Positions 41,601-59,837 of a stretch of DNA of 64,000 nucleotides are shown here, piece after piece. A model generated the notes under the pieces. The model was not told the origin of the DNA. It did not search any database and saw nothing but the letters and a program-made list of their open reading frames with translations. Every line of letters starts with the position of its first letter. The stretch's first letter is position 1. This DNA comes from Rhynchobatus australiae (Eukaryota): NCBI GenBank assembly GCA_034780895.1, contig JAUZTB010000094.1, positions 2,023,246 to 2,087,245 on the forward strand. Reading direction: 5' to 3'. Made by a program: the position numbers and the translations under genes.

Positions 41601-44600
41601 CATACTCCACCCTGGGGCAAGGGGATGGGGTGGGGAGAATTGATGGGGAATGTGGGAAGAATTAATCCACTGACCCACTTGTCTTGGGTGGAAACTAGAG
41701 CACCCGGAGGAGACCCACATGGTCACAGGGAGAACACATGCAAACTCCACACAGGCAGCGCCGGAAGTCGGGATTGAACCTAGGTCTCTGGCGCTGTGAG
41801 GCAGCAGCTCTACCCCCTGTGCCACTCTGCTGCCTCAGGTTCACCTCAGTGAAGGGGGAATCATTAACCTGCCATCTCTGGGTCTTCCAATTGGTTGTGC
41901 GCTGTGACAGTTACACCACTGTGGGCGGCAGACTGTGAACACTCATTGCTTGAGGGGCTTTCTTTGTGTCTGTTGCACAGCAATGAAGGTTCGATCCCTC
42001 CTGGACTGAGCTTGTGGCGGGAAACCTTGCTGAAGTGCACAAACGCTGCTCAGGTATTCATGTGCATCCAGCAGCTGGAGAAGTCCATCGCTTGGGAGAA
42101 GTCTGTTCTGAAAGTGGTAAGTCTGATAAATCAGTCCTTTAGTAAATGCAATTTGTCTAAATATCTACCTAATACATATGTTGCATCCACCTCCCCGTCT
42201 GTTGCCACCTCACTGCCCACCTGTCTTTCTGGATCCCATCTATTTATCAACAGCATCTGTCTGTCTGTCAGATTATGCTCCCTCTGCCTCCCCTCTCTTT
42301 CTCCACCTTCCCTCTCCCTCTCTTAAATATACTTGTTTAGTTCCCTACCAAAATGGCATCTGGGCTTGCATTGTGTTTCCAACACCTCCTGGTTATGTTC
42401 CCCCCTTCCCCTCAGGAGATCCACTGAGCTCTCCCTTCAGTCTGGCTGANNNNNNNNNNCCAACACTCAACAGGCCAGCTCCCCAGGGCAGGCTGGAGTC
42501 TTCCTCTGCCCACTGCTGTGCGTGATGTTGTACTGTGGTGAGCCGTGCAAGGGGATACCGTTTAATGTTTCAGGTTTGGTGCCCCCCATCAGAACTGGGA
42601 AAGAGAGATAATAAAGGTAATTTTAACTTACAGAAGGTGTGGCAGAGGAATGGATGGGACAAAGGGGATATCTTTGATTGGGTGAGACAAGGGCAGTAGG
42701 GTTAATGGGACAGTTGGAGGGTGAGTACATTTTCTATGTCTAGATTATGTGTTGTGGGACATGCCCAGCCAATAGAGAGAGAAAAACTGAGCCAAAATCA
42801 TGACTTGGAGCAGAAACAGCCAGTTCTGTTATGGACAGAGAAAGCAAATTGCCTGGCCAATGTGTTACCCCACATTGTGTCTCTTTAAAAAAATCTGTTT
42901 AAAAGCACTCTGAAAACTGTGGGAAGCCTCTATTGGGTGCATGCAGCATGCAGGGTCTCTGTACTCAGTCCTGATTCCAAAGCATAATGACAGTCCTTTT
43001 AAGGGTCACAGCCAAACCCAGGTGAAAACAGTAAAGCAGTGCCCTTTTCTGCCTTTATTTTGCAGTCATGTCAGATCTGTCGAAAGGGAAACAAAGATGA
43101 TTTGCTGCTGCTGTGTGACAACTGTGAACAGGGCTGCCACACCTTCTGCCTCAAGCCCAAGATTGTTGAAATCCCTGAGGAGGACTGGTTCTGTCCAATC
43201 TGTGTCAGCAAGGTACGGAGTACCAGTCTATGTCTGAATATCTTCCCAGCATCAGACACTGATTCATAATATAAACCTTTCTGAAGAGCACTAAGAATTA
43301 CTGGATTTCTTTATTGCTGGAACATCCAGTTCAGTACTCACCACCCTAGCTAACTTAATCGACAGCCCCACACAAAGGCTTCTTCCTTGCCCCCTCTCCT
43401 AAAGGTAGGGGCCCGTAACTGTGGAGGTATCCTGGCTAGTTATTGCCGTCCCTTCAGAGCCAAGGAGCGTTGGAGGGAACTAACGGGGTTAACACAGCCC
43501 AGACACTGCAAATCTTGTGCCGTGCATTCTCACTACAATCTGGGCCAGCTCTCCATGCAGAGAGCTGAGACAGTGAATGCAGAGCAGTGTACAAGCAAAC
43601 TCACCTGTAGAAGCAAGCACACAACTGCCTCTTTCACCGAGTTTACAGTCTAGTGACCCGTTTACATCTGGTTAGCTTAATTTTTGGCAACTCTTCTGCA
43701 CCTTGCTCCCTCTGACACACAACAAGCAGTGTGTTGGTGGGCTTCAGCCAACAGTGTGATGGGCACTCAAGGGTGGTGCGGGAACAGCTGAGGTATCTCC
43801 ACTCACCATCTAACATGTTGAGACAGACCCACTGCAGTGGAGGGGGATTGCAACCGATTGTGTGTGGTGCCGGTCACTGACAGGTTTTGTCTTGTTTCCA
43901 GGCGAACAGCCAGTCTGTCAGGCCTAGGTTGTCACGGAGTAAAATCAAGCAGAGAAGAAACAGGAAGCATCCTGCAAGAAAGGTTTGTGACATTGACAGT
44001 TTTGGTCCACTGTTTTTGAAAATACACGATGAAGAAAGGTCGAGATTATCTATCACCAGGAATGTTGACGTCACCGTGGTGAGCAGAGGGGTCCTGTGTA
44101 TGTGGGGACCATCTGGGCTCACCACATTGGGCGCGGTGGTGACTGTGGGGTCACCATAGCGGGCGTGGGGTTCACTGTGGGATCACCTTGGACTCACCAC
44201 AGCGGATTGGGAGACACTGACGAGTTTTGTCTTGTTTCTAGGCAAACAGCCACTCTGTCGAGCCTGGATCATTACCAACTAAAGGCAAGCATAGAAGATA
44301 CAGGAAGCGTACCGAAAACAAAGTCAGTAATGCCAGAGGTGTGGAATACTGCTCTGGGAAAAGGAGAAACAAAAAGAGGAGTAACTCCCTGTCACCTGGA
44401 AATGCACCTGCTACCAAGAGAAGGAGAATCTCAATCAAAAATGATCCAAAGGACCTTGCACTGTGCGAGTAAGTTCCAGCACAGAAGGAGCCTTGGTCTG
44501 GCCCGTCTGCTCCCTGACTCACTGCTGCTGCTTTCACTGATTCCATATATGTCCCTGGGTGTTAGCAGAATACTGATTACCTTCTCCTGGGTTTTGCCCC

Positions 44601-47337
44601 TCTGCTGAAGGTCTTGCCTTGGTGTGCTTTGGGTCCAGAGCACAAAACCTTAGAGGCACGGTGACATCTTGCCAACACCGACCCCAGTGTCCCGACTAGA
44701 ACTGAAGCATGGAATTCTTACGCTGCATCAGAACCACTCCCTGCAAATTACCCTCCCTCCCATCCCTGTCTGATTCCCACCTGATTGACCGTATCTCCAC
44801 CATGGATACAAGAAGTCAGTTTTGGGTCATTACTGCTCTCTGCATAAATAATTTCTCTCACACTTCCCCCTCCCCTTGTATCACTTAGCCAAAATACTAA
44901 ATCTGTGCTCACTAATGGAAATAGCTTCCCTCAATTTCGCCTGTCTAAACCAGGCTTCATCTTGTCCACCTCCGTCAGATCTCCTCTCAACCTTCTTTGC
45001 TCCAGGGAGGAGCACCCCTTGCTTCTCCCCTCAAAACTGGCAGCTGAAATCCCTCAATCCTGTAAGTGTTCCAGTAAATCTCCTCTGCAGTCTCTCTGGG
45101 ACCTTCACGTCCTTCCTATAATGTGGTGACCAGAATTACCTGTCTTTTACACCGGTTCAGTGAATGTTTGTACTCTATGCCTCTATTTATAAAGTCTGGG
45201 TAATCCAGTCTTCCCCAAAGCAGGGCATGCAATCCACTATCAGTGTGCATCCTGCTCAATCTGAGACTAATGCCGATCATTGTTCCCTGCAGGGTTATCC
45301 TCATGGAAATGGAATCCCACGAGGACGCCTGGCCCTTCCTGCACCCTGTCAACCCACGAATGGTGCCTGGTTACAGAAAGGTCATCAAAAAACCCATGGA
45401 CTTTTCCACCATCAGGGGCAAGCTCATTGAAAGGAAGTGAGTATCGTTGCCTTGAAGCTCAGTGACGGCTGAAGGTTGGCGAGAAGCACTCGAGTGAAAG
45501 GGAGTTGGGTGGGGCTTTTATTTCAGCGTGGGGGGGAGGTGGGTGGTGTTTAACAGGAAGAACCTTTCGTGCTTCTCATTGTGCATATTTGTGGCCAGAA
45601 TACTTCAGAAGTCGGTGATGGTGCTGGGCCTGGTGTTTGGATTTTATTTTCCTGATAAGATCCACACATGGAAAGGAGCATTCTTCCAGAGCACTCATTC
45701 CTCCTCAGAGCCTGGGGTTGGTCAGGTGGGCTAAAAACTGTCCCAAATGGCTCTGCCCCATGCAAGATGATGTATCAGGAGAGACTAGGGTTCCATGTGA
45801 AATACAAATACATAGAGGCAGTTTCTCCCTCCCAACCACTCCCTTGGGTGCTAAGTTAGAGGCTACAAATACTTTAAAGAAAAAACAGATTTTGTATTTC
45901 TGAACTTTGAGGCCATTTTGCGAATGAGTCAACAGTAACTTGCATGGAATGAATCTCTGTCGAATCAGATCTTTTGGTTCCATATAAACCCGACACATGA
46001 CAGAATAAAGATCAGTTCAAAAGAAGACTGCCACCCATGTTTTCCAAATTTATTGAGTGTGATCTGCCTGGGATTACTGACCACTGTGAGTGCTCTTTAA
46101 CTCCCATGTGTGGAAAGTTGCTTCACCTTGAAGGTAATTTTCAGTCAGATTTTCCTGATAATTGGAAATGCCTGATTGGGGGAAACAGCAACAGTGTAAA
46201 TAAAAATCAAAGTCAAAGTTGAGTTTATTGTCATATGTACAAGTCCATGTGTGCAAAGGTGCAATGAAAAACTTACCTGCAGCAGCATCACAGGCACACA
46301 GCATCAGAGACACAACATTCACAGGAAAATCATAAATTATACGTGAATTATACACAATTTTTACAAGGAAGAACACAATTAGAAAAAAAAAGTCCATTTT
46401 AGTGCTAAGTGATCAAAGTGGTCATCGTGTTGCTAAACTGTAGTGATTTAGGGTTGTGCCAGTTGGTTGAAGAACCGAATGGTTGAAGGGAAGTGGCTGT
46501 TCCTGAACCTGGTGGTGTGGGGACTTCAGGCTTCTGTACCTCCTGCNNNNNNNNNNNNNNNNNNNNNNNNNNNNNNNNNNNNNNNNNNNNNNNNNNNNNN
46601 NNNNNNNNNNNNNNNNNNNNNNNNNNNNNNNNNNNNNNNNNNNNNNGTGGGGACTTCAGGCTTCTGTACCTCCTGCCTGATGGTAGCTGCGAGAAGATGG
46701 CCCGGCCCGGATGGTGGGGATCTTTGATGATGAATGTTGCCTTCTTGAGGCGGCGCCTCCTGTAGATGCTCCTGATGGTGGGGAGGGGTGTGCCCGTGAT
46801 GTATTAAGCAGCCTGTGTGTCACAACTGAGTTCATCTCAAGTCCTGTTGAGCGGCAGTGTGTCTGGTCTGTAAATGTGAGCCAAGCAAGTGTCGGTTTGT
46901 GCTTCCTATTGTCTGCCCACGCACACCCTTCTACCAGAGGCACTGCTTTATTGCTTACAGGTCTGCAGCACTAACACCAGTCCTTCCTCCCTGACAGTCT
47001 CACTCAGCTTGGACCAGGGTTAAAGCACACACTTCCCTGCTCTGTGTGGCTCAGCACTGGACTGGGCAGTGGACCTGCAGACAAAGCCACAAACTACACA
47101 GAGCTGTGGAGTGGGATAGAGGGAGGGCTGACAGCTGTTTCTCAAAGGGTACTAACTTTTTTAACCTGCCCTCTCCTGTACAGATACACAAGCTGCAAGG
47201 AGTTTGCTGCGGACGCTCATTTGGTGTTCGATAACTGCCTGAACTTCAACGAAAACAGCTCCGAGATTGGGCAGGCAGGGAATGTCATGAAGAAGTTCTT
47301 TGAGAGTCGATGGGCTGAGTTTTATCATTCGAGTTAG
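8241..47337 (+). CDS. BAZ2A: BAZ2A/TIP5 (bromodomain adjacent to zinc finger domain 2A), spliced gene span with 23 coding exons in the window
   Basis: Manually joined exons have GT-AG sites and matching phases and give one open frame (3972 nt from ATG 8249 to TAG 47337). Domain order is TAM/MBD, AT-hook, DDT, WHIM1/2/3, PHD, bromo. BAZ2A-type motifs are REHFSFSPRM, EMKKPTEDL.LTDH, RKNKWIV, LHPRGIREKALHK, ILMEMESH and FFESRW.EFY. Confidence 0.93.
10245..10287. repeat. (CA)n microsatellite
   Basis: Direct inspection; explains the HTHTHT and VCVCVC ORFs. Confidence 0.98.
12950..13680 (-). mobile_element. CR1-type LINE 3' fragment
   Basis: ORF 13225..13587 carries CR1 RT C-terminal motifs (EYKSREV.L..Y..L.R.QLE...[19 protein letters not shown]). 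Confidence 0.88.
13973..14081 (+). CDS. BAZ2A: BAZ2A exon, TAM/MBD: WKREIRIKTVGNRLHGETTYYAPCGKKLRQFPDVIK
   Basis: Acceptor tctttgtcag and donor AAG|gtaatt; MBD-fold signature. Confidence 0.93.
15719..15820 (+). CDS. BAZ2A: BAZ2A exon, TAM: YLIRNEITELGREHFSFSPRMNVGEFFEMKENPE
   Basis: Acceptor tttttcag and donor GAG|gtttgt; lies within ORF 15578..15889. Confidence 0.93.
16476..16686 (+). CDS. BAZ2A: BAZ2A exon, end of TAM plus AT-hook 1 (GDQWYKLSAEE...RRGRPPN...DAKLMKKLEQQ)
   Basis: Acceptor gatttcttcag and donor G|gtacaa; phase 0 to 1. Confidence 0.92.
17205..17600 (+). mobile_element. Deu-domain SINE (SacSINE1/AmnSINE-like), degenerate
   Basis: tRNA-like head (gtgggttcaag), Deu core (ggtggatgtaaaatgtcccatgg...gggagttctccccagtg..ctg) and L2-like tail (aaggtgctgtagaaatgca). 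A reverse copy lies at about 34190-34690. Confidence 0.7.
17620..18250 (+). mobile_element. tRNA-head SINE with (tatct)n tail, interrupted by an LTR-type insertion
   Basis: ggcacggtagtgtagcagttagcataatgctattac...agcacc..acccgggttcaattccc..., ending taataaaggtatcttatcttatctt. A reverse copy lies at about 37690-38195. Confidence 0.85.
17658..17982. mobile_element. LTR-type insertion (solo LTR or collapsed element) with 5-bp TSD ATTAC
   Basis: Ends TGTCA...TGACA; ATTAC at 17653-17657 and 17983-17987; splits a SINE cleanly; has an internal N gap. Confidence 0.8.
19786..19847 (+). CDS. BAZ2A: BAZ2A exon: AVLNPKETQILKALMNKLKQK
   Basis: Acceptor aacttttag and donor AAG|gtattt. Phase 1 to 0 is needed to bridge the flanking exons. 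Confidence 0.8.
20613..20649. repeat. (TG)n microsatellite
   Basis: Direct inspection. Confidence 0.98.
20840..20980 (+). CDS. BAZ2A: BAZ2A exon, coiled coil ending EMKKPTEDLYLTDHK
   Basis: Acceptor ttctttccaacag and donor AAG|gtagtc; conserved pre-DDT motif. Confidence 0.92.
21440..21980 (+). repeat. G-rich minisatellite, unit about 31-33 bp (cacactg[t]gggaggggcagtactgagggagggt)
   Basis: More than 10 visible tandem units; an N gap inside the array means the true length is unknown. Confidence 0.95.
22124..22378 (+). CDS. BAZ2A: BAZ2A exon, DDT domain (PLPEFNRIAGL...AFSDCLTVFEFLHTYGKVLGF...LQEGLL)
   Basis: Acceptor tgtttgcag and donor CAG|gtacgg; ORF 22112..22402. Confidence 0.95.
22560..23040 (+). 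mobile_element. CR1-type LINE fragment, degenerate
   Basis: MVRPQLECCVQFW...[10 protein letters not shown] motif in ORF 22791..23003. Confidence 0.8.
24057..24271 (+). CDS. BAZ2A: BAZ2A exon, WHIM1 (NVSEVLRIFLEAYG...KASVLAFLVNEL)
   Basis: Acceptor ctttactag and donor AG|gtaagt; translated by hand. Confidence 0.94.
25120..25194 (+). CDS. BAZ2A: BAZ2A exon: EIDKNLCQRANIRKNKWIVDGKLRR
   Basis: Acceptor ggtgtag and donor AG|gtaagg; conserved motif. Confidence 0.92.
25572..25764 (+). CDS. BAZ2A: BAZ2A exon: LRRTLAKKRG...KKTEGIKT
   Basis: Acceptor ttggcag and donor ACG|gtaaat; ORF 25525..25902. Confidence 0.88.
27860..29140 (+). repeat. Degenerate minisatellite, unit about 50 bp (cacactcccagggtcagacacag..gtgaagctcc...), split by a Penelope fragment
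   Basis: Tandem units at 27860-28120 resume at about 28825-29140. Confidence 0.75.
28125..28825 (+). mobile_element. Penelope-like element fragment
   Basis: CSQDEAFHSRTSEMSSFF...PGTFPCNCRR..TC motifs (ORF 28145..28669), homologous to the element at 545-1020. Confidence 0.8.
29443..29505 (+). CDS. BAZ2A: BAZ2A exon: EHEQLSTSVSELSCQIEKLSK
   Basis: Acceptor ccccatctcag and donor AAG|gtgagt; QIEKLSK motif. Confidence 0.92.
30932..31076 (+). CDS. BAZ2A: BAZ2A exon, WHIM2/WSD (LGRDRFRRRYWVFPHLSGVFVEG)
   Basis: Acceptor tttccatag and donor G|gtaagg. Confidence 0.95.
31761..31975. mobile_element. Fold-back (palindromic) Penelope-terminus-derived mini-element with about 20-bp flanking direct repeat
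   Basis: Arms aaaaacagaaaatgctggaagaattcagccagt and actggctgagttcttccagcattttctgttttt; acactgttcaac(ac)gttaatg on both flanks. Confidence 0.75.
32086..32699 (+). CDS. BAZ2A: BAZ2A large linker exon (contains QWFSLLPRIPCD)
   Basis: Acceptor ctctccaccag and donor CAG|gtacgt; ORF 31974..32894. Confidence 0.88.
33144..33390 (+). CDS. BAZ2A: BAZ2A exon with C-terminal AT-hook (PKRRGRPSKFLK)
   Basis: Acceptor ctctcttgcag and donor G|gtgaga. Confidence 0.92.
35972..36127 (+). CDS. BAZ2A: BAZ2A exon, WHIM3 (EMQKGWW...LHPRGIREKALHKQL)
   Basis: Acceptor tcttttgtag and donor G|gtaggg. Confidence 0.95.
36240..36990 (-). mobile_element. CR1-type LINE 3' fragment
   Basis: SKFADDSKI RT motif (ORF 36722..36934) and the typical tail catagaacagtacag.acaggaacaggcccttcagccc. 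Confidence 0.88.
37243..37400 (+). CDS. BAZ2A: BAZ2A exon (…DLEVLQYLEELEQRVISASLQVE)
   Basis: Acceptor ctcctgctcag. The donor is either GAG|gtgctg (37400) or CAG|gtggag (37394); both are in frame. Confidence 0.88.
39180..39700 (-). mobile_element. CR1-type LINE 3' fragment
   Basis: ALEAIQRRFTRLI.GMRGMSYQERL..LGLYSLEFRRMRGDLIQTYKIL in ORF 39413..39844. Confidence 0.9.
40058..40341 (+). CDS. BAZ2A: BAZ2A exon (GWSCPDTDSTRDDLVY...NNPLDLAVSRLATLELNIERRYLKEPL)
   Basis: Acceptor tttgtccag and donor AG|gtaatc. Confidence 0.94.
40630..40850 (-). mobile_element. CR1-type LINE 3' end fragment
   Basis: W..LPEEVVEAGTITTFKRHLDRYM motif. Confidence 0.85.
41981..42116 (+). CDS. BAZ2A: BAZ2A exon (…LWRETLLKCTNAAQVFMCIQQLEKSIAWEKSVLKV)
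   Basis: Acceptor tgttgcacag and donor GTG|gtaagt; SIAWEKS motif. Confidence 0.95.
43066..43212 (+). CDS. BAZ2A: BAZ2A exon, PHD finger (C4HC3 intact)
   Basis: SCQICRKGNKDDLLLLCDNCEQGCHTFCLKPKIVEIPEEDWFCPICVSK; acceptor ttttgcag and donor AAG|gtacgg. Confidence 0.96.
43902..43982 (+). CDS. BAZ2A: Putative 81-nt symmetric cassette exon ANSQSVRPRLSRSKIKQRRNRKHPARK, a duplicate of the 5' part of the next exon
   Basis: Acceptor ttttgtcttgtttccag and donor AAG|gtttgt; phase 0 to 0 with no stop; clearly paralogous to 44242-44322. Confidence 0.65.
44242..44468 (+). CDS. BAZ2A: BAZ2A exon, PHD-bromo linker (ANSHSVEPG...PATKRRRISIKNDPKDLALCE)
   Basis: Acceptor ttttgtcttgtttctag and donor GA|gtaagt; ends in the DL..CE start of the bromodomain. 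Confidence 0.92.
44800..45230 (-). mobile_element. CR1-type LINE fragment
   Basis: FINRGIEYK motif and an aatctcctctgca.tctctc block shared with the other CR1 copies. Confidence 0.75.
45293..45436 (+). CDS. BAZ2A: BAZ2A exon, bromodomain (ILMEMESHEDAWPFLHPVN...YRKVIKKPMDFSTI)
   Basis: Acceptor tccctgcag and donor AA|gtgagt; WPF shelf and PMD motif. Confidence 0.96.
46205..46800 (-). mobile_element. LINE 3' end (Rex1/L2-like), with gap
   Basis: aagtcaaagttgagtttattgtcat tail and ctgttcctgaacctggtggtgtgg block typical of this repeat class; family assignment is tentative. Confidence 0.6.
47184..47337 (+). CDS. BAZ2A: BAZ2A last coding exon, bromodomain C-terminus (…VFDNCLNFNENSSEIGQAG…FFESRWAEFYHSS*)
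   Basis: Acceptor tcctgtacag; the acetyl-lysine-binding Asn (FNE) is retained; stop TAG. Confidence 0.96.
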
Positions 47338-48478
47338 AGTGTCACCAGGAGGTCAGGGGAAAAGGAAATGGTATAGATCATGGTAAAACCCAATAACACT
47401 GCCTCTCACCACTGAAGCTCTGTGTGACTTGGTGACTGCTTAGATTGGAAACAACACAGGTTTTGGCAGTTTCTCTTGGCTTTCTTTGGATTTCAATCCT
47501 TGGTATTTTTTAAACAAAAACCTATCTTCAATGTGTCAGACTTAGCTTTTAGGTGCCGAGGTTGAATATATGGAGTATGGATATGACAATGAGGAATGTA
47601 CTGTAGATCTCCCAGTACCACTTGGCTTTGCTGGAGATCACTATAGTTAAACAACAATTGGTGTAAAGCCACCACTCATTAGTTTCACTAAAGGGTGAGA
47701 ATAAGATGCTTAACTAGGAACATGGCAAATTAATTATATTGTTCATTACAGTTCCTCAAATTCATTAATTAGTGCTGACTGGGATTTAAAACTACACACT
47801 CTCTTCCTCCTGGGCTGGTTATTCATGTCACTTTGTCACACCAGGAGCTTTCACTGAATTGTTTGACACTGGTCCTTTCCAACCCAAGAGATTCACTCAT
47901 TTCCCCATCGAAACCTTGTTGAAGATGACTTGTGAAGTCGATATTGTATCACTGTCAGGGGCATGGCAGGCCAACATTTGTTTAGTCTGAACTGTGTGAT
48001 CTTTGCTTTCATATTTGAGGAAGTGCAGGGGCTGGAGAGAAGGCAAACCAAATGTAACAGCCAAGGGCTGTGTGCCATAGACATAGTTTGACTCTAACTC
48101 ATGTTGTCTGAGGTCATTGCAGGAAACATTCCACCTCCCTGAAGCAGCAGCCTCCCAAGATCCCATCCAAAACATTCCAGAGACTCGCCAAATCTTTCTT
48201 TTGGTCTGACCCTCTCTCCCCTCCCCACCACCCCCAGCCTTCCCAAATGATACAGACATCCTCACTCACAAGTAAGATAAGCAGTACAAAGAGATGAAAG
48301 GGATATATTTACCAGTAGGCTCGGATTTCGCTATTATCTATTTATATTTGTGTCATTTAGTAAATATTATTATTTATGTTTTATGTCGTAGTTTTGCACT
48401 GAGCTACAGTACTGTACTATGTGTTCAAGGGCAGTCTGAAACAATGAGTTCCCAATCTAGGCATCGGAATGGCGCCCT
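47338..48478 (+). other. BAZ2A 3' UTR (3' end not determined; runs into an N gap)
   Basis: Repeat-poor sequence after the stop, with AU-rich tatttat tracts at about 48330-48390. Confidence 0.6.
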
Positions 48479-50849
48479 NNNNNNNNNNNNNNNNNNNNNN
48501 NNNNNNNNNNNNNNNNNNNNNNNNNNNNNNNNNNNNNNNNNNNNNNNNNNNNNNNNNNNNNNNNNNNNNNNNNNNNNNNNNNNNNNNNNNNNNNNNNNNN
48601 NNNNNNNNNNNNNNNNNNNNNNNNNNNNNNNNNNNNNNNNNNNNNNNNNNNNNNNNNNNNNNNNNNNNNNNNNNNNNNNNNNNNNNNNNNNNNNNNNNNN
48701 NNCACTCTTAACAGTGAATAGAAGTTAGCCAAAAGAGAGAACAGTGCATTGGCACCTAACAGGGACTCTCATACTGAATCACACACAGCCTCCTCGTCCC
48801 TCAGAGCACTCACTACAATAGATTCAGTACTCATTTCGTTGAAGGCCAGCCTGCAGCAGTGTTGCAAGCACTGCATTCACAGGGGGCCTCAATGCAATGG
48901 TCTTTGGCACTGTGCAACTTGTTGCCAATTATGTTGTGTACCAGTGACAGGTTGTTGGAAAGGGAAGCAGGTTTCGGAGGAGCAGTGAATGAGTGTGCAT
49001 CTGGAGATTGTATATGGACTGCTCATGATAGGTGATGTAAAATGCAAAAGATGTGACTGCATTGTCTGTCACCTGCTGTGGAGTAGCCATGTTTGCAGTT
49101 AACATGATTAACCTTGTGCCAGACTGTGTTTATGATCATGTTTGTGGCAATTGATGGTGATTGAACAATTCCTCTTATTTTATAAGGGAGACAAAGAAAG
49201 CAAATACTTTTGAGTTTGTAAGTGGTAACTGACTGCTGTGCTACTCCCTGCAAAACTAAATATAGCAAATCAGAGTGAAAGAGGAGAGAACGAGTCTTTC
49301 AATTGGTCAGTTTCAGGGCAATGTCTGGTTACAAGGGGTAGGTTAGCCTTTGACCTTTCACTTATCAGAACCAATGCCTAAATCCAGCCCAAAGAATATC
49401 CGAAAATAAAAACTGCAGATACTGGAAATCTGTAATGAGAACAGGAAATGGAGTCATAGTCATACAGCACAGAAACAGGCCCTTCAGCCCAACTTGTCTG
49501 TGCTGACCAAGGTGCCACCTAAGCTGGTCCCATTTACCTGCGTTTGATGCTGGGAACACTCAGCAGACTGGGCAGTATCCATGGAGAGGGAATCAGTTCA
49601 TGTTTCAGGCTGAATTGAAGACCCTTCTTCAGAACTGGGAGAGAAAAACTGGGAGTATTAAATTGCAGAAAAAGTGGAGAGAGGAATGGATAGGAAAAAG
49701 GGAATATCTGTGATAGGGTGAAACTGGGTCAAATGGGTTAATGTACCAGTTAGGAGCAGATTATGCTGTCTGTGTTATGTGTAGCTAACAGCAGGGCTGT
49801 GGGACATGCTGCTTAAGGTTTCCATTAGCTCAAAGCCTTCAAATTGAGATTGCATAGCCTTAACCCAATCCCCAACAGACAGGGGCCCACAGCACTACAT
49901 TAACAATCTCACACAGCCAGGCAATGTGCAAAATGGAAAAATCCCATTGGTGTAGTTTGGAGACCTTTGGTGTAAGGTACATTCTCACAATCCTGCTAAA
50001 ATTAGGCAAAATCTCAGCAGAGAAAGGTGGAATATCTGGTTGTTGGACCCACTGGTCTGCATCCTGAAGATGCCTTGGGCATAGAAAACAGATGTAACAG
50101 CCCTGAGGAACCCTCACAGAGGACCTGATGTAGCAGCCTCCTCTCCCTTCAATAAAACCAGGAAGTGCATCTGGGGCTAATGTTTCCGATCGATGAAACT
50201 TCTTCGGAGCTAATAAATCAGGTTCTCATGAAAAGATATTGACCCAAAATGTTCCTCTTTCCTCCGACACTCTGTTTCTGTTTTTTATTTCAGCATCTGC
50301 AGTTGTTTGGTGTTCAATTACTCTCTCCCTCCACTCTGGCTCCAAGCATCTACCTGCTGCTCTTCAGTGGAACTGTGATTCTGATCTCTGGGGCCCTGCG
50401 CTCATGGCTGAGCCCTTCCAGCACCTGCAGGCTGCATCCTGAGATCAGAATCTTCCTCGAAGCCTTCCATGCATTCAGGATGAAATATGTCCCAGAAGGA
50501 AGGAGAAATAACTTATTCTCAAACACTATCAATCCTTGCACAGAAAACCCAAAGGAAATAATATTTGAAATCATTAATTTAAGTCAATATGGAAATTAGG
50601 ACAGTGAGTCAGTCATTTACACAGGGAACAGACTGGTCTATATAGGAAGAATCCATTCCATTATTCCTTTAAGCAAAGGAAGCACCTTTATATTTAACAT
50701 TTGTCATTGCTACAGTTTTATAATGTTCAATTGCTTTGTGACTGACAATTTGTTTCAATGTTATTTTTTAGGACCAACAACCTTCCTCAAAGGGAGTTAT
50801 TAAACGAGAGAATCACTCTGAATCATGCTGTGATGGGTGTTGTAGCGGG

Positions 50850-51620
50850 ACATAGGAAAAGTTCACCAGATTGATTCCTGGCATGGAGAGAGATTGTTCT
50901 GTGAGGAGATTAAGCAGACTGGTCCCATACACGCTGGAGTTTAGAAAAATGAGAGATGGTCTCATTGAAATGTACAAATTCTTACAGGACTTGACAGATA
51001 CAGGAATCAACCTGGTGAACCTTTCCTGTTTTGCTACATTCCCTGCTTCACAAGAATATCCTGTTTTAGGTAGAGGGAAAAGACTTGTAGGGAATATTTC
51101 AGATGTAGTCTCACTAGGGCCCTATATAATTTTAGTAAGGCTTCTGTACTCTTGTGCTCAAACCCTCTTGCAACAAAGGCTGACATGTCATTTGCCTTCC
51201 CACTGAACCTGCATGTTAACTTTCAGTGATTCAGAGCTCCCTCTGAACACCACTACCTTTCAATCTTCCATCATTTTAAAAAAGAATGCACGTTTTTATT
51301 TTTTTCCACTAAAGTGGATGACCTCCCAATACATTCTATCTGCTACATCCTTGCCCATTCACTTATCTGTCCATATGTTGGTGCTGGAAGCATGGTGACA
51401 CTTGTGGGCTGCCCCCAGAACACTCCACGATGTACAGTACATGTGACGAATAAAGCTATCTTACCTTGTATCCCCCGAAGCCCCCCTGCATCCTCCTCAC
51501 AGCCCACACTGCAATCCAGCTTTGTATCATCACCAAACTTGGATATATCACTCTTGATTCCTTTGGCCAATTCATTGATACAGAATGCAAGCAGCTGGAC
51601 GCAATACCCAATCTCTGCAG
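50850..51620. mobile_element. CR1-type LINE pieces in opposite orientations, with a nested SINE tail (about 51375-51465)
   Basis: + piece YTLEFRKMRDGLIEMYK; - piece ISKFGDDTKL. Confidence 0.8.
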
Positions 51621-53659
51621 CAGCCAATATTTTTAGAATACATAGTAAAGGGCCACTAAACCAGTAGACGCAGTCTTGGAAAGGTTAAAATATTTTGAGA
51701 ACTCAAACCCTACAAAATTTTGGTAATGGAAAAGCAATGGAAGCTTGTCTCCAGGTACTGAGGGCAGTAACAGTAGAGCAGCAGGAAGCACTGAGCTTTC
51801 TTTATTTAAAGAATGTTTTCTTTGTCTTCCTCTTCCGTACGTTTATGTAACTCATGATGAAAGCTGATCATCTTATAAAGTAGCAGACAAGAAGCATTTA
51901 GTTTCTGCTCTACAGCCCAGGTGAAGGCATTGTCAGTCCTGGCGTCTACCTGCACTTCTTGACTTTTGGATCTCCTGGGTCCTTAACTGGTGTTTTAACA
52001 AATGGAAATGTACCACACTTGTGTGCACACACATACACGACATTTAATAAAGGCAGAGTGGGAAGGGAACCATCCTGTTCTCAAACACTATTAACCCTCA
52101 CAGAGAAAACCCATGAAAAATATTTGAAAACATGGAAATTAGGGTAGTGGGATCGGTCATTTACACAGGGAACAGACTGGTCTGCATAGGAAGAACCCAT
52201 TCCTTTATTCCTTTTACCAAAAGGAGCACCCTTTTATATGACATTTGCTGTTGCCACTGTTTTATAATGTACAGTTTTTTTGTGACTGAAAGTTCATTTC
52301 TTTCTATATATTTTTAGGACCAACAACCTTTCTAAAAAGAAGCTATTAAAAGAGAAAACCTCTTTGAATCGTGCTGTGACGGGTGTTGTAATGCAAGTGC
52401 AACTGTAGAATATATTGTGAGTTAAATAAAGTTACATTATACTGAGAAGGTGGTCAGGGCTTCGATGTTTTGAATTTTATTCCTTGCATCATTTGTTCAT
52501 TTATCTCAATGATATTACGCGGGTATAAATTGAATAGGCTGGGTCTTCCATTGATTGTCATGAATTTGCTAGTCACCTCTACCTGGAGCCTGCATACAGC
52601 ACAGAAACATGCCCTTCAGCCCACTGAATCCCTGCTGGTGATCAAGCACCCATTTTTACATTAGTTCGATCCTAACCCATTTTATTCTCCCCACATTCCA
52701 ATTCAACTACCCCCAGATTCTACCACTCACCTACACATTAGGGACAATTTACAGCAGCCAATCGATCTTCCAACTTGCATATTTTTGGGATGTGGGAGGA
52801 CACCAGAGCACCCGAGCGAAACCCATGCGGTCACAAGGAGAACATGCAAACTCCACACAGACAGCACTGGAGGCCAGGATTGAACACAGGTCTGGAACTC
52901 TTAATAAACACGGGAAAGATTACGCTGCAGCTGAACTCCCCTCAGCTAGGGTTCACAAGGTGAGCTGCTATTGACCACTTTTAATACACATCTGACTTTC
53001 ATTTGGATTTATTTTGATGAATTCCATTTATTCAAAAATATTCAGTGGTTGGTTCTGAAGTGAATTGGTACTGTTTTCCACTGTCACTAGAGCAACTGTT
53101 AGGAATCTGACCATTTAGAACACTCTGTCCTACCTTTAACCAGCTGGAGATTTCGAACTGTGCAGCACACTCCAGCAACTTTTCCAGCTTCCATGTTCTG
53201 TTATATCAACCCCTAATAATCCCCCCTAAGTGGTGGCCATCAGGAAACATCCAAGTTTTTTAGATTTTTACAGGAGTGTCATTTCATTAAAATCTAATCC
53301 TTTCAATGTTAACTGTAAAAAGAGAAACTTTATTCTTCCAGGACAGTCAAAGTGTAGCTTCGGATTTATATATCATGATGGTAAAGGCAAAATATCCCAA
53401 GCAACACCGGCTCTTCCCGCACATGCAACATGAAATAGATTAGTTCATTATAAATTGGTAAGCTGTATCAAAATAGAAGTGACAATTACTTTATTTTTAC
53501 AGAACACAAACGGGCCATTGAGCCTTTGATGTCCACGCCTTATCCCACTTTTCCCTTCATCCTATACAATGTCAATGTACATGAGTGAGGACAGGAGTAG
53601 CAGAAAGCCATGGAAGAAGTTTGGGGCTCTGATGAGCCAACCCTGACTTTTAAATACCA

Positions 53660-54060
53660 AAGGTTGACCAGACTGAATTTTGGAAGGGCATGACAGTCAT
53701 ATGAGGAAAAGTTGGGTTGACAAGGCCTAAATTCACTGGAGTTTAGGAAAACGAAAGGAGATCTCGTTAAGCTGCACACATTTCTGACAAGGCTAGATAG
53801 ACAGGCTGTTTCTCCGGCTGGGGTGTCTAGAACCAGGATTCACAGTCTCAGGAAACAGGATTAGACATTCAGGATGGGATCAGGAGGCATTACTTCATCC
53901 AGGGGGTTGGTGAACCTGCAGCATTCTCTGCCACAGAAGATGAGGGAAGCAAAGTCGCTGAATATGTTTCAGAAGGAAGGTAGATTTCCGGACGCAAAAA
54001 TTGCGATAGAGGATCAACCAGGATTATAGTGAACGGCAGAATGGGCGACTCCTGCTCCTC
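53660..54060 (+). mobile_element. CR1-type LINE 3' fragment
   Basis: aggttgaccagactga...tatgaggaaaagttg...ctggagtttaggaaaacgaaaggagatctc...gggcgactcctgctcct. Confidence 0.75.
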
Positions 54061-54169
54061 CATTCAAAACATAAAACCTGCAGTTGCTGCAAATTTAAAA
54101 CAAAACAGAAAATGCTGGAAACGTTCAACAGATCGGGGAACAGCTCTGAAGGGAGAAGCAGATTTCACG

Positions 54170-54830
54170 CCTTAGGTCCGGGACCACTGGGCAGCCGGTT
54201 CCCGGCCGGGACACCGACTGGATCCTCCCGCTGGCCGTTGTCAATCAGCAGCCACTTCCTGTTCCGGCGGGGTGACCTCGGAGCTGCTCTCCCCTGCTCT
54301 CGTTCGGTAACTGAGTCGCGAGACACGGCGCGTGGNNNNNNNNNNNNNNNNNNNNNNNNNNNNNNNNNNNNNNNNNNNNNNNNNNNNNNNNNNNNNNNNN
54401 NNNNNNNNNNNNNNNNNNNNNNNNNNNNNNNNNNNGTGGGTCAACGGCCGCCGTCCGGCTCCGGGCTCCCGCCTCCCGCAACGGCCGCCGTCCGGCTCCG
54501 GGCTCCCGCCTCCCGCAACGGCCGCCGTCCGGCTCCGGGCTCCGGGCTCCCGCCTCCCGCAACGGCCGCCGTCCGGCTCCGGGCTCCCGCCTCCCGCCTC
54601 CCACAACGGCCGCTGGCGGGTACTTGCTGGTCCTCACCGGGTCGCCCGCAGCTCCTTGGACCGATACCGAGGACCAGCATCTGGGCCCGGGGTGGGAGTT
54701 AGCACAGCCCGTGGTCCCGTCCTATCGCCCACTTCACAGCCACGGGCTGGGTGGGGCGGCCGGTCTGCGGGCAGCAGCGGCGTGGTGGTGGCGGGACGAG
54801 GTGCCCATGTCTGAGACCCACGGAAGTTGG
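54170..54830 (+). promoter_or_regulatory. CpG island: COX14 promoter and non-coding exon 1 (about 54250-54306)
   Basis: Very GC- and CpG-rich; tandem ETS/GABP-like sites CACTTCCTGTTCCGG at about 54253-54267; donor TCG|gtaact at 54306/54307. Confidence 0.7.
54442..54615 (+). repeat. GC-rich VNTR, 37-bp unit caacggccgccgtccggctccgggctcccgcctcccg, in COX14 intron 1
   Basis: At least 4 visible units with 7-bp sub-repeat slippage, next to an N gap. Confidence 0.95.
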
Positions 54831-55219
54831 AACAATCTCGGTCACTTCCCTGCCTTTTTTGTTAGCTGCCACTAAATTCAACCAGCATGACATCATGTCC
54901 AGTAGTGTACGTCTGCTGTCTGCCAGGTTCATGGTTTACGGTGGGGTGTAGGTGAGGGTGCAGGAAGGAGTTATGTTGCCTTTATTCTAATCATGAACGT
55001 TTGCTTTTAAGGTTTGAACAGAGAGGAAAACAATTCCCTGCTGTCATAGAGGATTTGCATTTGAAAGGTACCTTTAAGACTGTTAAAACCCTGTTTACAT
55101 GTTGCAATGCTATATGTATAACAAGTAATATTTAAATCTAGATGGTAAGGATAATCTTTGATTAAAATGCTTTAGTAAAAGGGTATTACAATCTAAAACG
55201 TTTGGGAGCCTTTGTTATT

Positions 55220-56510
55220 GAGTCATAGAGTTGTACAGCACAGAAACAGGACCTTCAGCCCACCATGTCCATGCTGACCTTTTTGCCCAGCTACACTAAT
55301 CCCATTTGCCCACATTAGACCCATATCCTTCTGTGCCTTGCCTATTTAAGTGCCTATCTAAATGTCGCTTAAATGCAGTGAATATATCTGACTCCATCAC
55401 TTTCTCTGGCAGCAAGTTCCAGATACTAACCGCTCCCTCTGTTTTAAAAATTTACCCCTCAGATCCCCTTTAAAACTCCTTCCCCTCAACTTAAAACCAC
55501 TTGTTTTGGTACCCCTACCATGGGGGAAAAGTTCTATCTACCTCGTATAATTTTAAATATCTCTGTCAGGTCACCCCTCAGCCTCCTTTGCTCCGGAGAA
55601 AATAAGCCAAACCTGTCCAGTGTTTTGCCATTACTAAAGTCCTCCAATCCAGGCAACATCCTGGTGAATCTCCTATGCACTCTCTCTAGTGCAACCATAT
55701 CCTTCACTTAGTGTGGTGACCAGAACTGCACACAATACTTCAAGTACAACCTAACTAGTGTTTTGTACAGTTACAACATGGTGTCCCAACTTTTTTATTC
55801 TCTGCCCTGATCTATCAAGGCAAACATGCCTTATACCTTCTTCACTTCCCCTATCTACTGTGTTGCCGTTTCAGGAAACTATGGACTTGGGCCCCAAGGT
55901 CCCTCTGTTCATCATCATTCCTTAACAACCTATCATTTATTGTACATGTCCTAGCATTTATGACTTTGCAAAATGCATCACCTCACACTTGTCAGGATTA
56001 AATTCCATCAGCTGATGCTGTGCCCAACTTTTCATTTGATCTACATCCTGTAGTGGTCTTTGACAACCTTCCTCACTATCCACAGCACCATCAACTTTCA
56101 TGTCATCTGCAAACTTGCTAATTATACCTCCTACATTCACATTCAAGTCATCAATATTTATCACAAATAACTTACAATCTTCTTAGTTACCTTCTCAAAA
56201 CATTGAATTAGTAGGGCACACAAAGCCATGCTCTCTATCCCCAATCAGCCCCTGCCTTTCCAAATGTAAATAAATCCTATCCCTTAGGATTTTCTCCAGT
56301 AATTTTCCTATCACTGACATAAGTTCACTGGTCTGGCTGCCCTTTTTAAATAAAGACACAACATTAGCTACCTTCCAGATTTCTGGTACCCCTCCTGTGG
56401 CTGAAGANNNNNNNNNNNNNNNNNNNNNNNNNNNNNNNNNNNNNNNNNNNNNNNNNNNNNNNNNNNTGGATAGATCTCATCCAGACTTGGGGATTTATCA
56501 ACCCTTATGT
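55220..56510 (-). mobile_element. CR1-type LINE fragment including RT core
   Basis: INIDDL...ISKFADDMKV...MEFNPDKCEVMHF in ORF 55958..56164. Confidence 0.9.
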
Positions 56511-57224
56511 GTCCTATGACATCTCATCTGTTCTGTTTCCTTATTTGGATACTCTCTCTATTTGTATCCATGGGCAACATTTGTACGTGGCAGTTGAGAC
56601 ACTCTGGGAGAGCTGCCTTTGTTGGGAGTGGTTGTTGGGGTCATTTGAGTCATTCTGCATACATGTAGGTGCTTGAGTACTATTTCTTCCCCCAGCTTCT
56701 ACACCAAGAGCCACATATGTAAGTAGTGCTCAGCATTGTGACTGAGCACGCTCCAAATGAGAGACTACAGCCCACAGAGTCAGCTAAATACACAGGTACT
56801 CATGTCCATCCCAGGCCACTCCTGGTGACTGGTCAGGTGATGTGACTGCTCCTCACCCTGGGTTCGCGACCATTTTGGTGAAATTGTGCAGGGTATCCAT
56901 ATCTACTTTTCCTTCTGAAATCAGCACCCTGTTTTTGGCTTGAGCCTGACTGATCCTATTTCAGACACCTGCTCCACGGATGTGTTTGTTGGGTTACCAG
57001 TGCATGGTGAAGTTGTGCACCTAATTTCTCACTTGGCACTGAATCCCTTAATGTTCAGAGGAAGTGTGTTCCTGGCAGGTGGAAAGCAAATCAGTAACCC
57101 TTGCCCACCAGAAAAAATAACATATCCCCTCCTTGTTCAAGAACCACAGCAGTTGGGCAAGAGTTTGTTTCAGCCCTTTTCCCCTCCAGCTAAAACTTGG
57201 TGTATGTGTTCCAGATCCATCACC

Positions 57225-57401
57225 ATGGTGTCCTCTAAGAGACTTGCAGACATGGGTTACAAGATGGTTTCTGGCTCAATGATATTACTGACAGTATACG
57301 GTGGTTATCTGTGCAGTCTCCGTGTCTACCGCTTCTTCCAGAGACAAAAGACCTTGAAGGCAGCAGCTAAAGATCAAGCCAGTGAAATAATAAAAGACTA
57401 A
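57225..57401 (+). CDS. COX14: Cytochrome c oxidase assembly factor COX14, 58 aa, single coding exon
   Basis: MVSSKRLADMGYKMVSGSMILLTVYGGYLCSLRVYRFFQRQK... matches the COX14 signature LAD.GYK...SM.LLTVYGGYLCS.RVY. Strong Kozak CACCATGG; acceptor tgtgttccag just upstream (exon starts 57215). Confidence 0.95.
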   Translation: MVSSKRLADMGYKMVSGSMILLTVYGGYLCSLRVYRFFQRQKTLKAAAKDQASEIIKD

Positions 57402-57789
57402 AAGCTGCTCCTGTCCTGGGGAAACACCCTCACTCCCACCCTTTCAGTATGTAAGAAATGAATGCTTCATGTTGTATATCTAGCTACTGGAATTGTGTGA
57501 ATCAACTTTAAAATCTATTTGTTATAAAATGTTTAAATAATTCTGTTGAAAGTGATTTGTTTTGAGCTTTGTGTAGATTCATTTTTATCATGTTCTTTAA
57601 AGCTCAGTGGGCTGTTTCTTCCACAGCCTTTGTACAGAAGTGGTTAGTGATTTGGTTCAATGACCTTACAACACCAGCTTTTGCCAGTTCTCCTGAAAGA
57701 CTCTTGTCAAGTACAGAGGCAGGGCAAGGGGCAGAAAGACATGGATGAAGATTGAGCAAGAGGAGAGATCAAGGTAAATATGGTGGTGA

Positions 57790-58110
57790 TGAGACCAGGT
57801 GAAAACAAACTGGAGCAGTGGTAATCACCTAATATTGTTGAATTTGGATCCAGTAGGTTGTAGTGTGCTTAAGAACAGGTGCTTTTACTGGAGCTTTGAG
57901 CTGCACTACAGTGGTGTCATTTGGAGGGGGGATTGGGAAGGAGAATTGAGTGGCAGTTGACTGGGTGATGTTTGCAGACTGAATGGAGATGGTCCATAAA
58001 GTAGTCACTCAGTTTGGGTTTGGTTGTCCCAGTGCAGAGACCTCATCAGCAGTGCCTACAATAGACAGAATTGGAAGAATAGTAAGACTCCAATAATCAG
58101 CACACTGAGG
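57790..58110 (-). mobile_element. Penelope-like fragment, highly degenerate
   Basis: Resembles the minus-strand fragment at 130-540. Confidence 0.5.
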
Positions 58111-58134
58111 ATTTTGGTGTCAAGAGCAAGTTGG

Positions 58135-59330
58135 AATCATACAGCACAGAATCATGCTGGTCCCATTTGCCTGCATTTGGCCCACGTCCCTCTAAGTCTT
58201 TCCTATCCAAGTACCTGTCAAGTGTCTTTTAAACATTGTAATGTACCTGCCTCAACCACTTCCTATGGCAGCTTGTTCCACATACCCACCACACTGTGTG
58301 AAAATCTTTCCCTTCTAGTTTTAGATTCCCCTACCCTTGGAAAATGACTATGACTGTCTACCCTTAGAGGTTTATAAAATTATGAGGGGCATAAGGTCAC
58401 CCCTCGGCCTCCTGTGCTCTGGTGAGAACAATTACTGCCTATCCAATCTCTCCTTGTAACTACAGCCCTCCATTCCAGGCAAGATGCTGGTGAATCTCTG
58501 TCTTAGCACTCCTGAACGGCTGCAACATGATGTCCCAACTTTTATGCTCAATACCCCTGTCCATATAGGTAAGCAGGCTAAACACTGCCTTCACTACCAT
58601 ATCCAGCAGTGTCACCACTTTCAGGGAGCTCTGCACTTGCAGCCCAAGGTCCTTCTGTACATCACACTCCTGACATCCCTGCCATTTACTGTACACGTCT
58701 GGCCAGTATCAGATGACCCAGTATGCATTACCTCACACTTGTCTGGATTAAATTCCATCTGCCCCTGCTCTACCCAACTTTCCAGCTGATCACCGTCCCT
58801 CTGTATCCTGAGGCAACCATCCTCACTATCTACAACTCCACCAATCTTTGTATCACCAGCAAACTTATCAGACCACAGAATTCTCACTCAAGTATACAGA
58901 TATGACACACAACACAGGTCCCACCACTGGTTACAGACTTCCAGTCAGGAAAACCCCATCCACCCCTACCCTCTGCTCCTATCACTGAGTTCATTTTGGA
59001 TCCAGTTTCCCAAAACACCTTGGATCCCATGTGCCTGAACTTTCTGGACCAGCCTACTGTGTGGGGCCTTGCTCAAGTCCACGTATACCACATCTACTGC
59101 CTTGCCTTCATCAAGTTTCTTCATAACCTCCTCAATCAAATTTGAGCGACAGAATCTCCCCTGCACAAAACCACACCGACTCCCCCAATCAGCCTTTCCA
59201 AGTGATCATAAATCCTGTCCTCAACAATTTTTTCCCAATAGTTTCCCGACTACTGCCTGTAGTTTCCTGGCTTAGCCCCATTGCCCTCCTTGAATGTAGG
59301 AACAACATTAGCTACTTCCAGTATGCACTT
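58135..59330 (-). mobile_element. CR1-type LINE fragment (RT)
   Basis: KFAGDTKIGGVVDSE, DEGKAVDVVYVDLSKA and MEFNPDKCEVMH motifs. Confidence 0.9.
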
Positions 59331-59837
59331 CATGCATAGTTGTCAGGGACACCCAACATCTTGATCCACAGGAGGAGCACACCAGTCCACTGACAGCCAC
59401 TTCTGCCTCCAAAGTGAATACTGGGTTAAAGAGAGAAGACCTCAAGGTCAGCACTTTGACTTCAAACTGGTCATTTCACTGGTTAAAACACTCCTTTACA
59501 CCACTTCCGCTCTCTCCCCCACCCCAACCCCGAGTAGTGCTGGAGTTTCCAGACAAGTGAATGGTATTTCTATTAATACTCCAGTGCAATTCTATTCACT
59601 TTTAAACATATTACAGTGGCATAATGTTCCAGTGAACCCAGCGAGTTTAAAGGGAGCAGGAAATGGAAGCTGATGAGTTTCAGCTTGTCAAAGTGAGCTG
59701 AAACAAGTGCTCCAGTCACAAACTTTCCCACATCCCAGTGTTCCCAAACCAGGCTCTGGCTGCACACCCAGCTGTAGCCTGGACCCCCAGCTCGCACTCA
59801 ACTAAGGAGTGTGACCTCAAATGTGGTCTCTTGCATT

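What the first reader, a model, noticed from the sequence alone, without database searches (positions are those of the whole stretch)
43870..44468. Birth of a new exon by tandem partial duplication in the PHD-bromodomain linker
43875-43990 and 44215-44330 are paralogous. They share the acceptor (cactgac..gttttgtcttgtttc[c/t]ag|GC[G/A]AACAGCCA[G/C]TCTGTC) and align over 27 codons without indels: ANSQSVRPRLSRSKIKQRRNRKHPARK versus ANSHSVEPGSLPTKGKHRRYRKRTENK. In the upstream copy, the position that reads AAA GTCAGT inside the parent exon has become AAG|GTTTGT, a usable donor. This gives an 81-nt, frame-preserving, stop-free exon with many amino-acid changes and a more basic composition. Inclusion would lengthen and add charge to the linker between the two histone-reader domains, and may add an NLS/NoLS or nucleic-acid-binding patch.
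Basis: seen in the sequence. Interest (0 to 1): 0.7.

Follow-up and report, generated by a model that had tools for sequence, protein, structure and literature searches.

The report
Ray-specific extra exon in BAZ2A
In rays and sawfish the chromatin gene BAZ2A carries an extra 81-base exon that sharks lack, likely made by a short tandem duplication whose decayed tail still lies in the new intron; it lengthens a basic linker, likely with little or modest effect on histone binding, and is a new example of a known way to gain exons and introns.

Summary
The duplication is real and the exon is used. The gene is batoid BAZ2A/TIP5 (tree support 98/99). Spliced contigs from a related organism (3 samples, 1 study) join 43212^43902 and 43982^44242; no skip joint was listed. 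All 15 of 15 batoid protein models (6 species) carry both copies. All 28 of 28 shark models (9 sets) carry one. Skates were not found, so the date is open between the batoid stem and the stem of non-skate batoids. That part became intron, has decayed (1-nt insertion, stop) and keeps shark-like residues that the live exon has lost. The donor was already latent in the parent's Lys-Val-Ser codons. This is the known route of intron gain by tandem duplication across an intron-exon boundary (potato RdRp precedent). The new exon is more basic but has not evolved faster than its twin, adds no classical NLS-like motif, and shows no sign of alternative splicing. It is a clean vertebrate example of modest interest; no functional effect is shown.

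The parts
43066..43212 (+). PHD-finger exon of BAZ2A (147 nt, phase 0-0)
   Evidence: Pfam PHD E=2e-12; junctions
43875..43901 (+). Upstream copy of the acceptor (branch-point-like CACTGAC, pyrimidine tract, AG)
   Evidence: 24 of 27 nt identical to 44215-44241; joint 43212^43902
43902..43982 (+). Exon A: extra 81-nt in-frame exon, 27 aa, net charge +11
   Evidence: Spliced contigs of X1-X3; present in 15 of 15 batoid and 0 of 28 shark models
43983..44241 (+). New 259-nt GT-AG intron created by the duplication
   Evidence: Joint 43982^44242; retention reaches a stop after 85 codons
43983..44064 (+). Intronised relic of the duplicated exon (about codons 28-54), with a 1-nt insertion near 43990 and a TGA at 44017-44019
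   Evidence: 39 of 80 nt identical to exon B over 43991-44070; shark-only profile reached in 8 of 3000 shuffles and 2 of 245 window tiles; keeps His, Tyr and Arg shared with all 6 sharks where exon B differs
44114..44187 (.). 32-bp minisatellite, 2.3 copies, in the rest of the new intron
   Evidence: Tandem Repeats Finder
44215..44241 (+). Downstream copy of the acceptor, used by exon B
   Evidence: Joint 43982^44242
44242..44468 (+). Exon B: parent linker exon (227 nt, phase 0-2)
   Evidence: 92% identical to Pristis BAZ2A-like; joint 44468^45293; same phases as the single BAZ2B linker exon
44320..44328 (+). Latent donor AAA|GTCAGT inside exon B (Lys-Val-Ser codons), the counterpart of exon A's donor
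   Evidence: Score 5.5 against 7.8 for exon A's donor on a matrix from 15 donors of this gene
45293..45436 (+). First bromodomain exon
   Evidence: tblastn 98% to P0001; joint 44468^45293

Best explanation
Batoid BAZ2A has an extra, spliced-in 81-nt exon that likely arose when a tandem duplication copied the acceptor and at least the first two thirds of the PHD-bromodomain linker exon and splicing took up a latent in-frame donor inside the upstream copy, and the added 27 basic residues are likely a tolerated lengthening that would at most retune histone binding. Shown: the two copies; the decayed exon relic in the intron; the three junctions in a relative; presence in all batoid and absence from all shark models examined; a single-exon state in the paralogue. 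Inferred: the order of events. The parent exon is phase 0-2, so including a whole copy, or retaining the intron, breaks the frame; the Lys-Val-Ser donor at +81 is the strongest site in the upstream copy and is in frame, which rescued the gene and turned the rest of that copy into intron. Also inferred: fixation before electric rays, sawfishes and stingrays split, near-constitutive inclusion, and weak constraint on the linker's residues. Any biochemical effect is untested.
For: Sequence. Relic. Junctions in X1-X3 and no skip joint in the complete table. Both copies lie on DNA contigs of a second organism, X5. Distribution 15 of 15 against 0 of 28 and 0 of 3 chimaera models. BAZ2B single exon with the same phases. 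The +81 donor is the best of 26 GT sites after the upstream acceptor (7.8; next 4.1). For tolerance: dN/dS between copies 0.78, not different from 1 (17 N, 6 S; Fisher p=0.77); charge per residue 0.21-0.26 in batoids against 0.20-0.23 in sharks; linkers of 10 unnamed BAZ2A-like representatives vary from 80 to 95 aa on a scale where sharks measure 88. Precedent: PMC4974935 and PMC3443670.
Against: No shark or skate genomic DNA could be examined, so the single-exon ancestral state rests on protein models and the paralogue. RNA support is contigs from one study of one related organism, not the window's species; contigs drop rare isoforms, and most protein models are automatic annotations. The relic's significance depends on scoring: local DNA alignments gave p of 0.004-0.7 across three parameter sets, and 372 of 2670 random window segments reached the score under one set. 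Against pure neutrality: exon A stays open and basic (+9 to +11) in all 5 batoid sequences compared while its twin is +3 to +7, and exon B shows dN/dS of about 0.37 on 11 listed changes. The donor matrix includes another GTTTGT donor of this gene, which raises exon A's score.
Confidence: 0.8

Rival explanations
1. Same outcome, larger event: the whole 227-nt exon with its own donor was duplicated, and the upstream copy was later cut back to 81 nt; its 3' end has since been erased.
For: The 340-nt spacing has room for acceptor, whole exon and 86 nt of intron. A minisatellite covers 44114-44187, where the copied donor would lie (about 44129). A whole phase 0-2 copy would frameshift, favouring truncation.
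Against: Identity beyond 44070 is at background (38 of 144 nt) and no donor-like site remains near 44129.
Confidence: 0.3
2. The extra exon is a selected regulatory module: a second, more basic copy of the PHD-proximal histone-mimic stretch that retunes H3 or nucleosome binding, PARylation or nucleolar targeting of TIP5 in rays, possibly under alternative splicing.
For: Charge has split consistently: A +9..+11, twin +3..+7, sharks +7..+8. In human BAZ2B the PHD-proximal basic patch lowers H3-peptide binding about 9-fold and is PARylated (PMC5663869 passages). In mouse TIP5 the linker raises octamer binding (PMC13510838). The exon is kept in all 6 batoid species with models.
Against: No skip isoform in 15 models or. 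No relative-rate test is significant. Charge density of the whole linker barely changes. No new K[KR]x[KR] motif. The two papers disagree on the direction of the linker's effect. All 4 Narcine models lack the PHD exon yet keep exon A.
Confidence: 0.2
3. The two-copy state is ancestral and sharks and chimaera lost a copy, or the ancestor already had an intron after codon 27.
For: No shark genomic DNA was seen; protein models cannot show exon borders.
Against: Chimaera, both shark superorders and bony-vertebrate sequences have short single-copy linkers. In the 27-aa tree the batoid A and B copies group together apart from sharks (78%, weak). The relic continues into sequence that is contiguous coding sequence in sharks. 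BAZ2B has one exon.
Confidence: 0.04
4. The upstream copy is an unused pseudo-exon, a chance likeness or an assembly artefact.
For: No RNA run of the window's own species was available.
Against: Exact GT-AG junctions on both sides in X1-X3; DNA contigs of X5 hold both copies; X4 has one 2,180-nt contig with 0 differences across the region, though it may be the assembly's source; 15 of 15 batoid models include it.
Confidence: 0.02

Closest known systems
Intron gain by tandem duplication across an intron-exon boundary with a cryptic exonic donor: potato RdRp gene PGSC0003DMG402000361 (Ma, Lan and Niu 2016, PMC4974935; abstract and passages seen)
   Same: The duplicated unit spans the acceptor and the start of the exon. 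The new intron consists of formerly exonic sequence of the upstream copy plus intronic sequence of the downstream copy. The donor is a cryptic exonic site and the acceptor signals are inherited.
   Different: This case is a vertebrate, old and fixed across at least three batoid orders. The formerly exonic part is about 80 nt and decayed to about 50% identity. The product gains 27 residues in a regulatory linker.
[quoted passage not shown]
   Same: A latent site in the duplicated segment is used and coding sequence is added.
   Different: This is not the precise AGGT (Rogers, ATP2A1) form, in which a purely exonic segment is duplicated and the protein is unchanged.
Mutually exclusive tandem duplicated exons (PMC9741552, PMC8373072; search listing only)
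   Same: Adjacent paralogous exons with a duplicated acceptor.
   Different: Here both copies are spliced in together, the copies differ in length and phase, and no substitution isoform was seen.
BAZ2A/TIP5 and the basic PHD-bromodomain linkers of BAZ2B and TIP5 (PMC5663869 passages; PMC13510838 parts 1-2 of 5)
   Same: Same gene family and domain order; the duplicated stretch is the PHD-proximal basic part of the linker.
   Different: The batoid linker is 101-103 aa with two copies of that stretch; no binding data exist here for any cartilaginous-fish protein.

Membership tests
Intron/exon gain by tandem duplication across an intron-exon boundary | Tandem copies that include the acceptor and the start of the exon | tested here: met
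   acceptor 24 of 27 nt, exon 58 of 81 nt, spacing 340
Intron/exon gain by tandem duplication across an intron-exon boundary | New intron begins with formerly exonic sequence of the upstream copy | tested here: met
   Relic 43983-44064: (significant in diagonal and shark-profile tests, not in all local DNA alignments)
Intron/exon gain by tandem duplication across an intron-exon boundary | Donor recruited from a latent site in the parent exon | tested here: met
   GT at the same position in both copies; parent site in the top 5.7% of 3471 GT sites; Val-Ser follows codon 27 in 3 of 6 shark sequences
Intron/exon gain by tandem duplication across an intron-exon boundary | The new intron is spliced out | tested here: met
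   Joint 43982^44242, GT..AG, in contigs of X1-X3 (related organism, one study)
Intron/exon gain by tandem duplication across an intron-exon boundary | Intron absent from outgroup genomes | tested here: inconclusive
   Outgroup proteins have one copy and the paralogue one exon, but no outgroup genomic DNA was available
Precise AGGT tandem-duplication intron gain (Rogers model) | Purely exonic duplicate; protein unchanged | tested here: not met
   The duplicate includes intronic acceptor sequence and adds 27 aa
Mutually exclusive tandem duplicated exons | One copy or the other, never both, in a transcript | tested here: not met
   Both copies lie in one contig and in 15 of 15 models
Alternatively spliced cassette exon | A skip isoform exists | tested here: inconclusive
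   None or in 15 models; contigs and annotations miss rare forms
BAZ2A/TIP5 orthologue | Groups with vertebrate BAZ2A, apart from BAZ2B | tested here: met
   the batoid and shark proteins join chimaera, gar, coelacanth and bird BAZ2A at 98/99; the window's exons match P0001, mostly at 82-100%. The window's own sequence was not a row of the tree.
BAZ2A/TIP5 orthologue | MBD/TAM, DDT, WHIM, PHD and bromodomain architecture | tested here: met
   Precomputed Pfam accessions for P0001 (domain names recalled from the accessions); PHD hit on the window exon; the bromodomain exon alone gave no Pfam hit
Histone-mimicking inhibitory linker (BAZ2B type) | PHD-proximal basic patch binds the PHD and changes H3 affinity | not testable with these tools
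   Position and charge fit; binding not measured

The most novel reading that the evidence does not exclude
Rays duplicated the PHD-proximal histone-mimic stretch of TIP5 and then split its charge between the copies: the new exon became the basic regulatory patch while the parent stretch drifted. A gained vertebrate intron, with its exon fossil still legible, would then mark a lineage-wide retuning of how the rDNA-silencing reader engages histone H3.
Probability: 0.2. Interest if true: 0.55.

Novelty: new member of a known kind. Interest (0 to 1): 0.3.

Why it matters
Intron gains with an identifiable source are few (PMC4974935 abstract), and gains are described as rare in vertebrates (PMC3257199 and PMC3151243, start of abstracts only), with the fewest changes in the cartilaginous fish studied (PMC3964593 passage). 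Here the source, the latent donor and the leftover exon sequence can all be read in 600 bases, and the relic keeps ancestral residues that the live exon lost. The exon is also a ready presence/absence marker for placing skates among batoids. It gives a natural length and charge variant of a linker on which two papers disagree (it inhibits or it aids histone binding). None of this is a new mechanism, and no functional effect is shown.

Tried and rejected
Skate orthologues: none recognised in three protein searches or among the 13 top representatives inspected of 150 listed; this is a gap, not absence. No RNA holder was listed as on record; X1-X3 are RNA by guess and were used only after laying, where they show spliced GT-AG joints. 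A skip joint 43212^44242 was not listed (one search hid 7 joints). Extension of the duplication upstream of 43875: background identity (27 of 100; shuffles not exceeded). Extension beyond 44070: background. Faster evolution of the new copy: rejected. Faster evolution of the parent copy: a trend only (best p=0.07 of 30 comparisons). New classical NLS motif: not found; nucleolar signals were not scored. 44060-44220 as a dispersed repeat: only the self match, in a search that skips common words. Pfam found nothing on exons A or B. ORF listing of 47100-64000 showed no obvious neighbouring gene for synteny (not scanned against families). Earlier findings of this scan: none. Literature: no report of this exon found (0 of 20 listed mention BAZ2A; 7 papers, titles unrelated, none read; 10 of 129 listed); subscription journals and supplements were not searched. 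Gao and Lynch 2009 was not held. No structure or complex was predicted, since the linker is described as disordered in the papers read.

Full report
Observation. The repeat finder gives 43875-43984 and 44215-44324 at 76% identity without gaps, far above shuffles (0 of 2000). Exon A is 43902-43982 (81 nt, open, phase 0-0). Exon B is 44242-44468 (227 nt, phase 0-2). They share 58 of 81 nt and 13 of 27 residues. The DNA was found once in the genome.

The gene. Exon B finds only batoid 'BAZ2A-like' proteins: Pristis 92%, Mobula 79%, Hemitrygon 73%. The Pristis protein maps exon by exon across 8240-47334 of the window. A tree of the last 450 residues of 21 proteins places the batoid and shark proteins with chimaera, gar, coelacanth and bird BAZ2A at 98/99, apart from BAZ2B. 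The window is therefore from a ray or sawfish relative and the gene is BAZ2A/TIP5.

Is the exon used? Contigs from three runs of one related organism (X1-X3, one study, about 95% identical in the linker exons; RNA by the tool's guess) join 43212^43902 and 43982^44242 at GT..AG, and X1 and X2 also join 44468^45293. No skip joint is in that table. A second organism's DNA (X5) holds both copies. X4 spans the region in one contig without differences but may be the assembly's source. All 15 batoid protein models from 6 species (Pristis, two Mobula, Hemitrygon, Hypanus, Narcine) contain both copies. Contigs and annotations miss rare isoforms, so 'constitutive' is an inference.

When. All 28 shark models from 9 sets (Heterodontus, Cetorhinus, Carcharodon, Pristiophorus, Heptranchias, two Chiloscyllium sets, Mustelus, Hemiscyllium) have one copy and a 77-aa linker. 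The 3 full-length chimaera models have 71 aa; 5 short chimaera fragments were left out. In this genome the paralogue BAZ2B has the linker as one exon with the same phases, 0 and 2. So one exon is the likely ancestral state, and the duplication falls after the shark-ray split and before electric rays, sawfishes and stingrays parted. Skates, placed as sister to other living batoids by molecular studies (PMC7612883 passages), were not found.

After a 1-nt insertion near 43990 the match to exon B continues on diagonal 339: 39 of 80 nt against 18-27 on neighbouring diagonals, not reached in 10000 shuffles taking the best of 21 diagonals. That stretch was picked by eye, so I tested it independently with a profile made only from the six shark linkers, all 50 columns. 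The intron scores 31.5, reached by 8 of 3000 shuffles and 2 of 245 other window tiles. With 20 columns chosen after the fact it ranks first of 127,882 positions, above exon B itself. At three positions (His, Tyr, Arg) the relic matches all six sharks where exon B differs; at one or two exon B matches and the relic does not. It carries a TGA where sharks have Arg. Local DNA alignments are less convincing: p from 0.004 to 0.7 by parameter set, and 372 of 2670 random window segments reach the score under one set. Beyond 44070 and upstream of 43875 identity is at background, and a 32-bp minisatellite lies at 44114-44187. The duplicated unit was thus at least about 190 nt. Whether it once held the whole exon cannot be told here.

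Mechanism. Exon B is phase 0-2, so a whole extra copy would shift the frame, and retention of the 259-nt intron meets a stop after 85 codons. On a matrix built from 15 donors of this gene, the site at +81 is the best of 26 GT sites after the upstream acceptor (7.8, median of true donors 7.4) and is in frame. The same position in exon B scores 5.5, in the top 5.7% of GT sites in the window (small matrix, and it includes another GTTTGT donor). It sits on Lys-Val-Ser codons; Val-Ser is also seen there in 3 of 6 sharks, while Mobula, Hemitrygon and Narcine exon B no longer have Val there. I infer that this latent donor rescued the frame after duplication and turned the rest of the upstream copy into intron. 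This is the same anatomy as the potato RdRp case, where a duplicate crossing an intron-exon boundary gave a new intron with a cryptic exonic donor and inherited acceptor (PMC4974935, abstract and passages), and it falls under 'imprecise' gain by tandem duplication (PMC3443670 passages).

Function. The linker grows from 77 to 101-103 aa and from net +15..+18 to +21..+27, but charge per residue hardly moves (0.20-0.23 to 0.21-0.26). Exon A is +9..+11, its twin +3..+7, the shark stretch +7..+8. Exon A is as close to sharks as its twin or closer; none of 30 relative-rate comparisons is significant. dN/dS between the copies is 0.78 (17 N, 6 S), not different from 1. Exon B shows about 0.37 on the 11 of 13 changes listed against X1. 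Exon A has no K[KR]x[KR] motif, whereas exon B and shark linkers do. Linkers of 10 unnamed BAZ2A-like representatives range from 80 to 95 aa where sharks measure 88 (3 of 13 rows lacked the anchor motifs). This favours a tolerated lengthening. The regulatory reading remains open: in human BAZ2B the PHD-proximal basic patch lowers H3-peptide binding about 9-fold and is PARylated (PMC5663869 passages), while in mouse TIP5 the linker raises octamer binding (PMC13510838, parts 1-2 of 5). The duplicated stretch is that PHD-proximal part. All four Narcine models lack the PHD exon yet keep exon A, which argues against a role only through the PHD.

Novelty and verdict. I found no report of this exon (open-access library only, supplements not read) and no earlier finding of this scan. 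The mechanism is known. The case is a clear vertebrate example with a readable fossil, in a group where the one genome studied showed few intron changes (PMC3964593 passage). New member of a known kind; interest 0.3.

Noticed in passing
window 43066-43212: The PHD exon is symmetric (147 nt, phase 0-0) and is missing in 4 of 4 Narcine models and in one model each of Hemitrygon, Heterodontus and a Chiloscyllium set. This may be a conserved PHD-less isoform, a true loss in Narcine, or annotation gaps. X1-X3 include the exon.
   Followed up: partly
window 43875-43919 and 44215-44259: The first 45 nt of the two copies are 40 of 45 identical against 42 of 63 for the rest of the exon (Fisher p=0.011, boundary chosen by eye). 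Mobula, Hemitrygon and Hypanus show the same Val-to-Ala change at codon 6 in both copies (site overlap by chance about 0.29). Splice-signal constraint or gene conversion.
   Followed up: partly
window 43898: In X5 the upstream acceptor has T here, as in the downstream acceptor, so the window's C is probably derived.
   Followed up: no
window 44114-44187: 32-bp minisatellite, 2.3 copies, inside the new intron; no other match in the genome search.
   Followed up: partly
window 42560-42860 and 44930-45180: High-copy interspersed repeat fragments, by the depth of unrelated contigs laid there. Decayed LINE-like reverse-transcriptase pieces are suggested by eye at about 50800-51700, 56200-56500 and 59700-60100 (label recalled, not tested).
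   Followed up: no
window 46517-46546 and 46647-46676: Identical 30-nt direct repeat flanking a 100-N gap: probably an assembly overlap.
   Followed up: no
window 54200-54700: GC-rich tandem repeat beside a gap, seen in the ORF listing.
   Followed up: no
P0017 (Narcine): The Narcine models run on past the usual C-terminus with an extra tail of about 25 residues.
   Followed up: no
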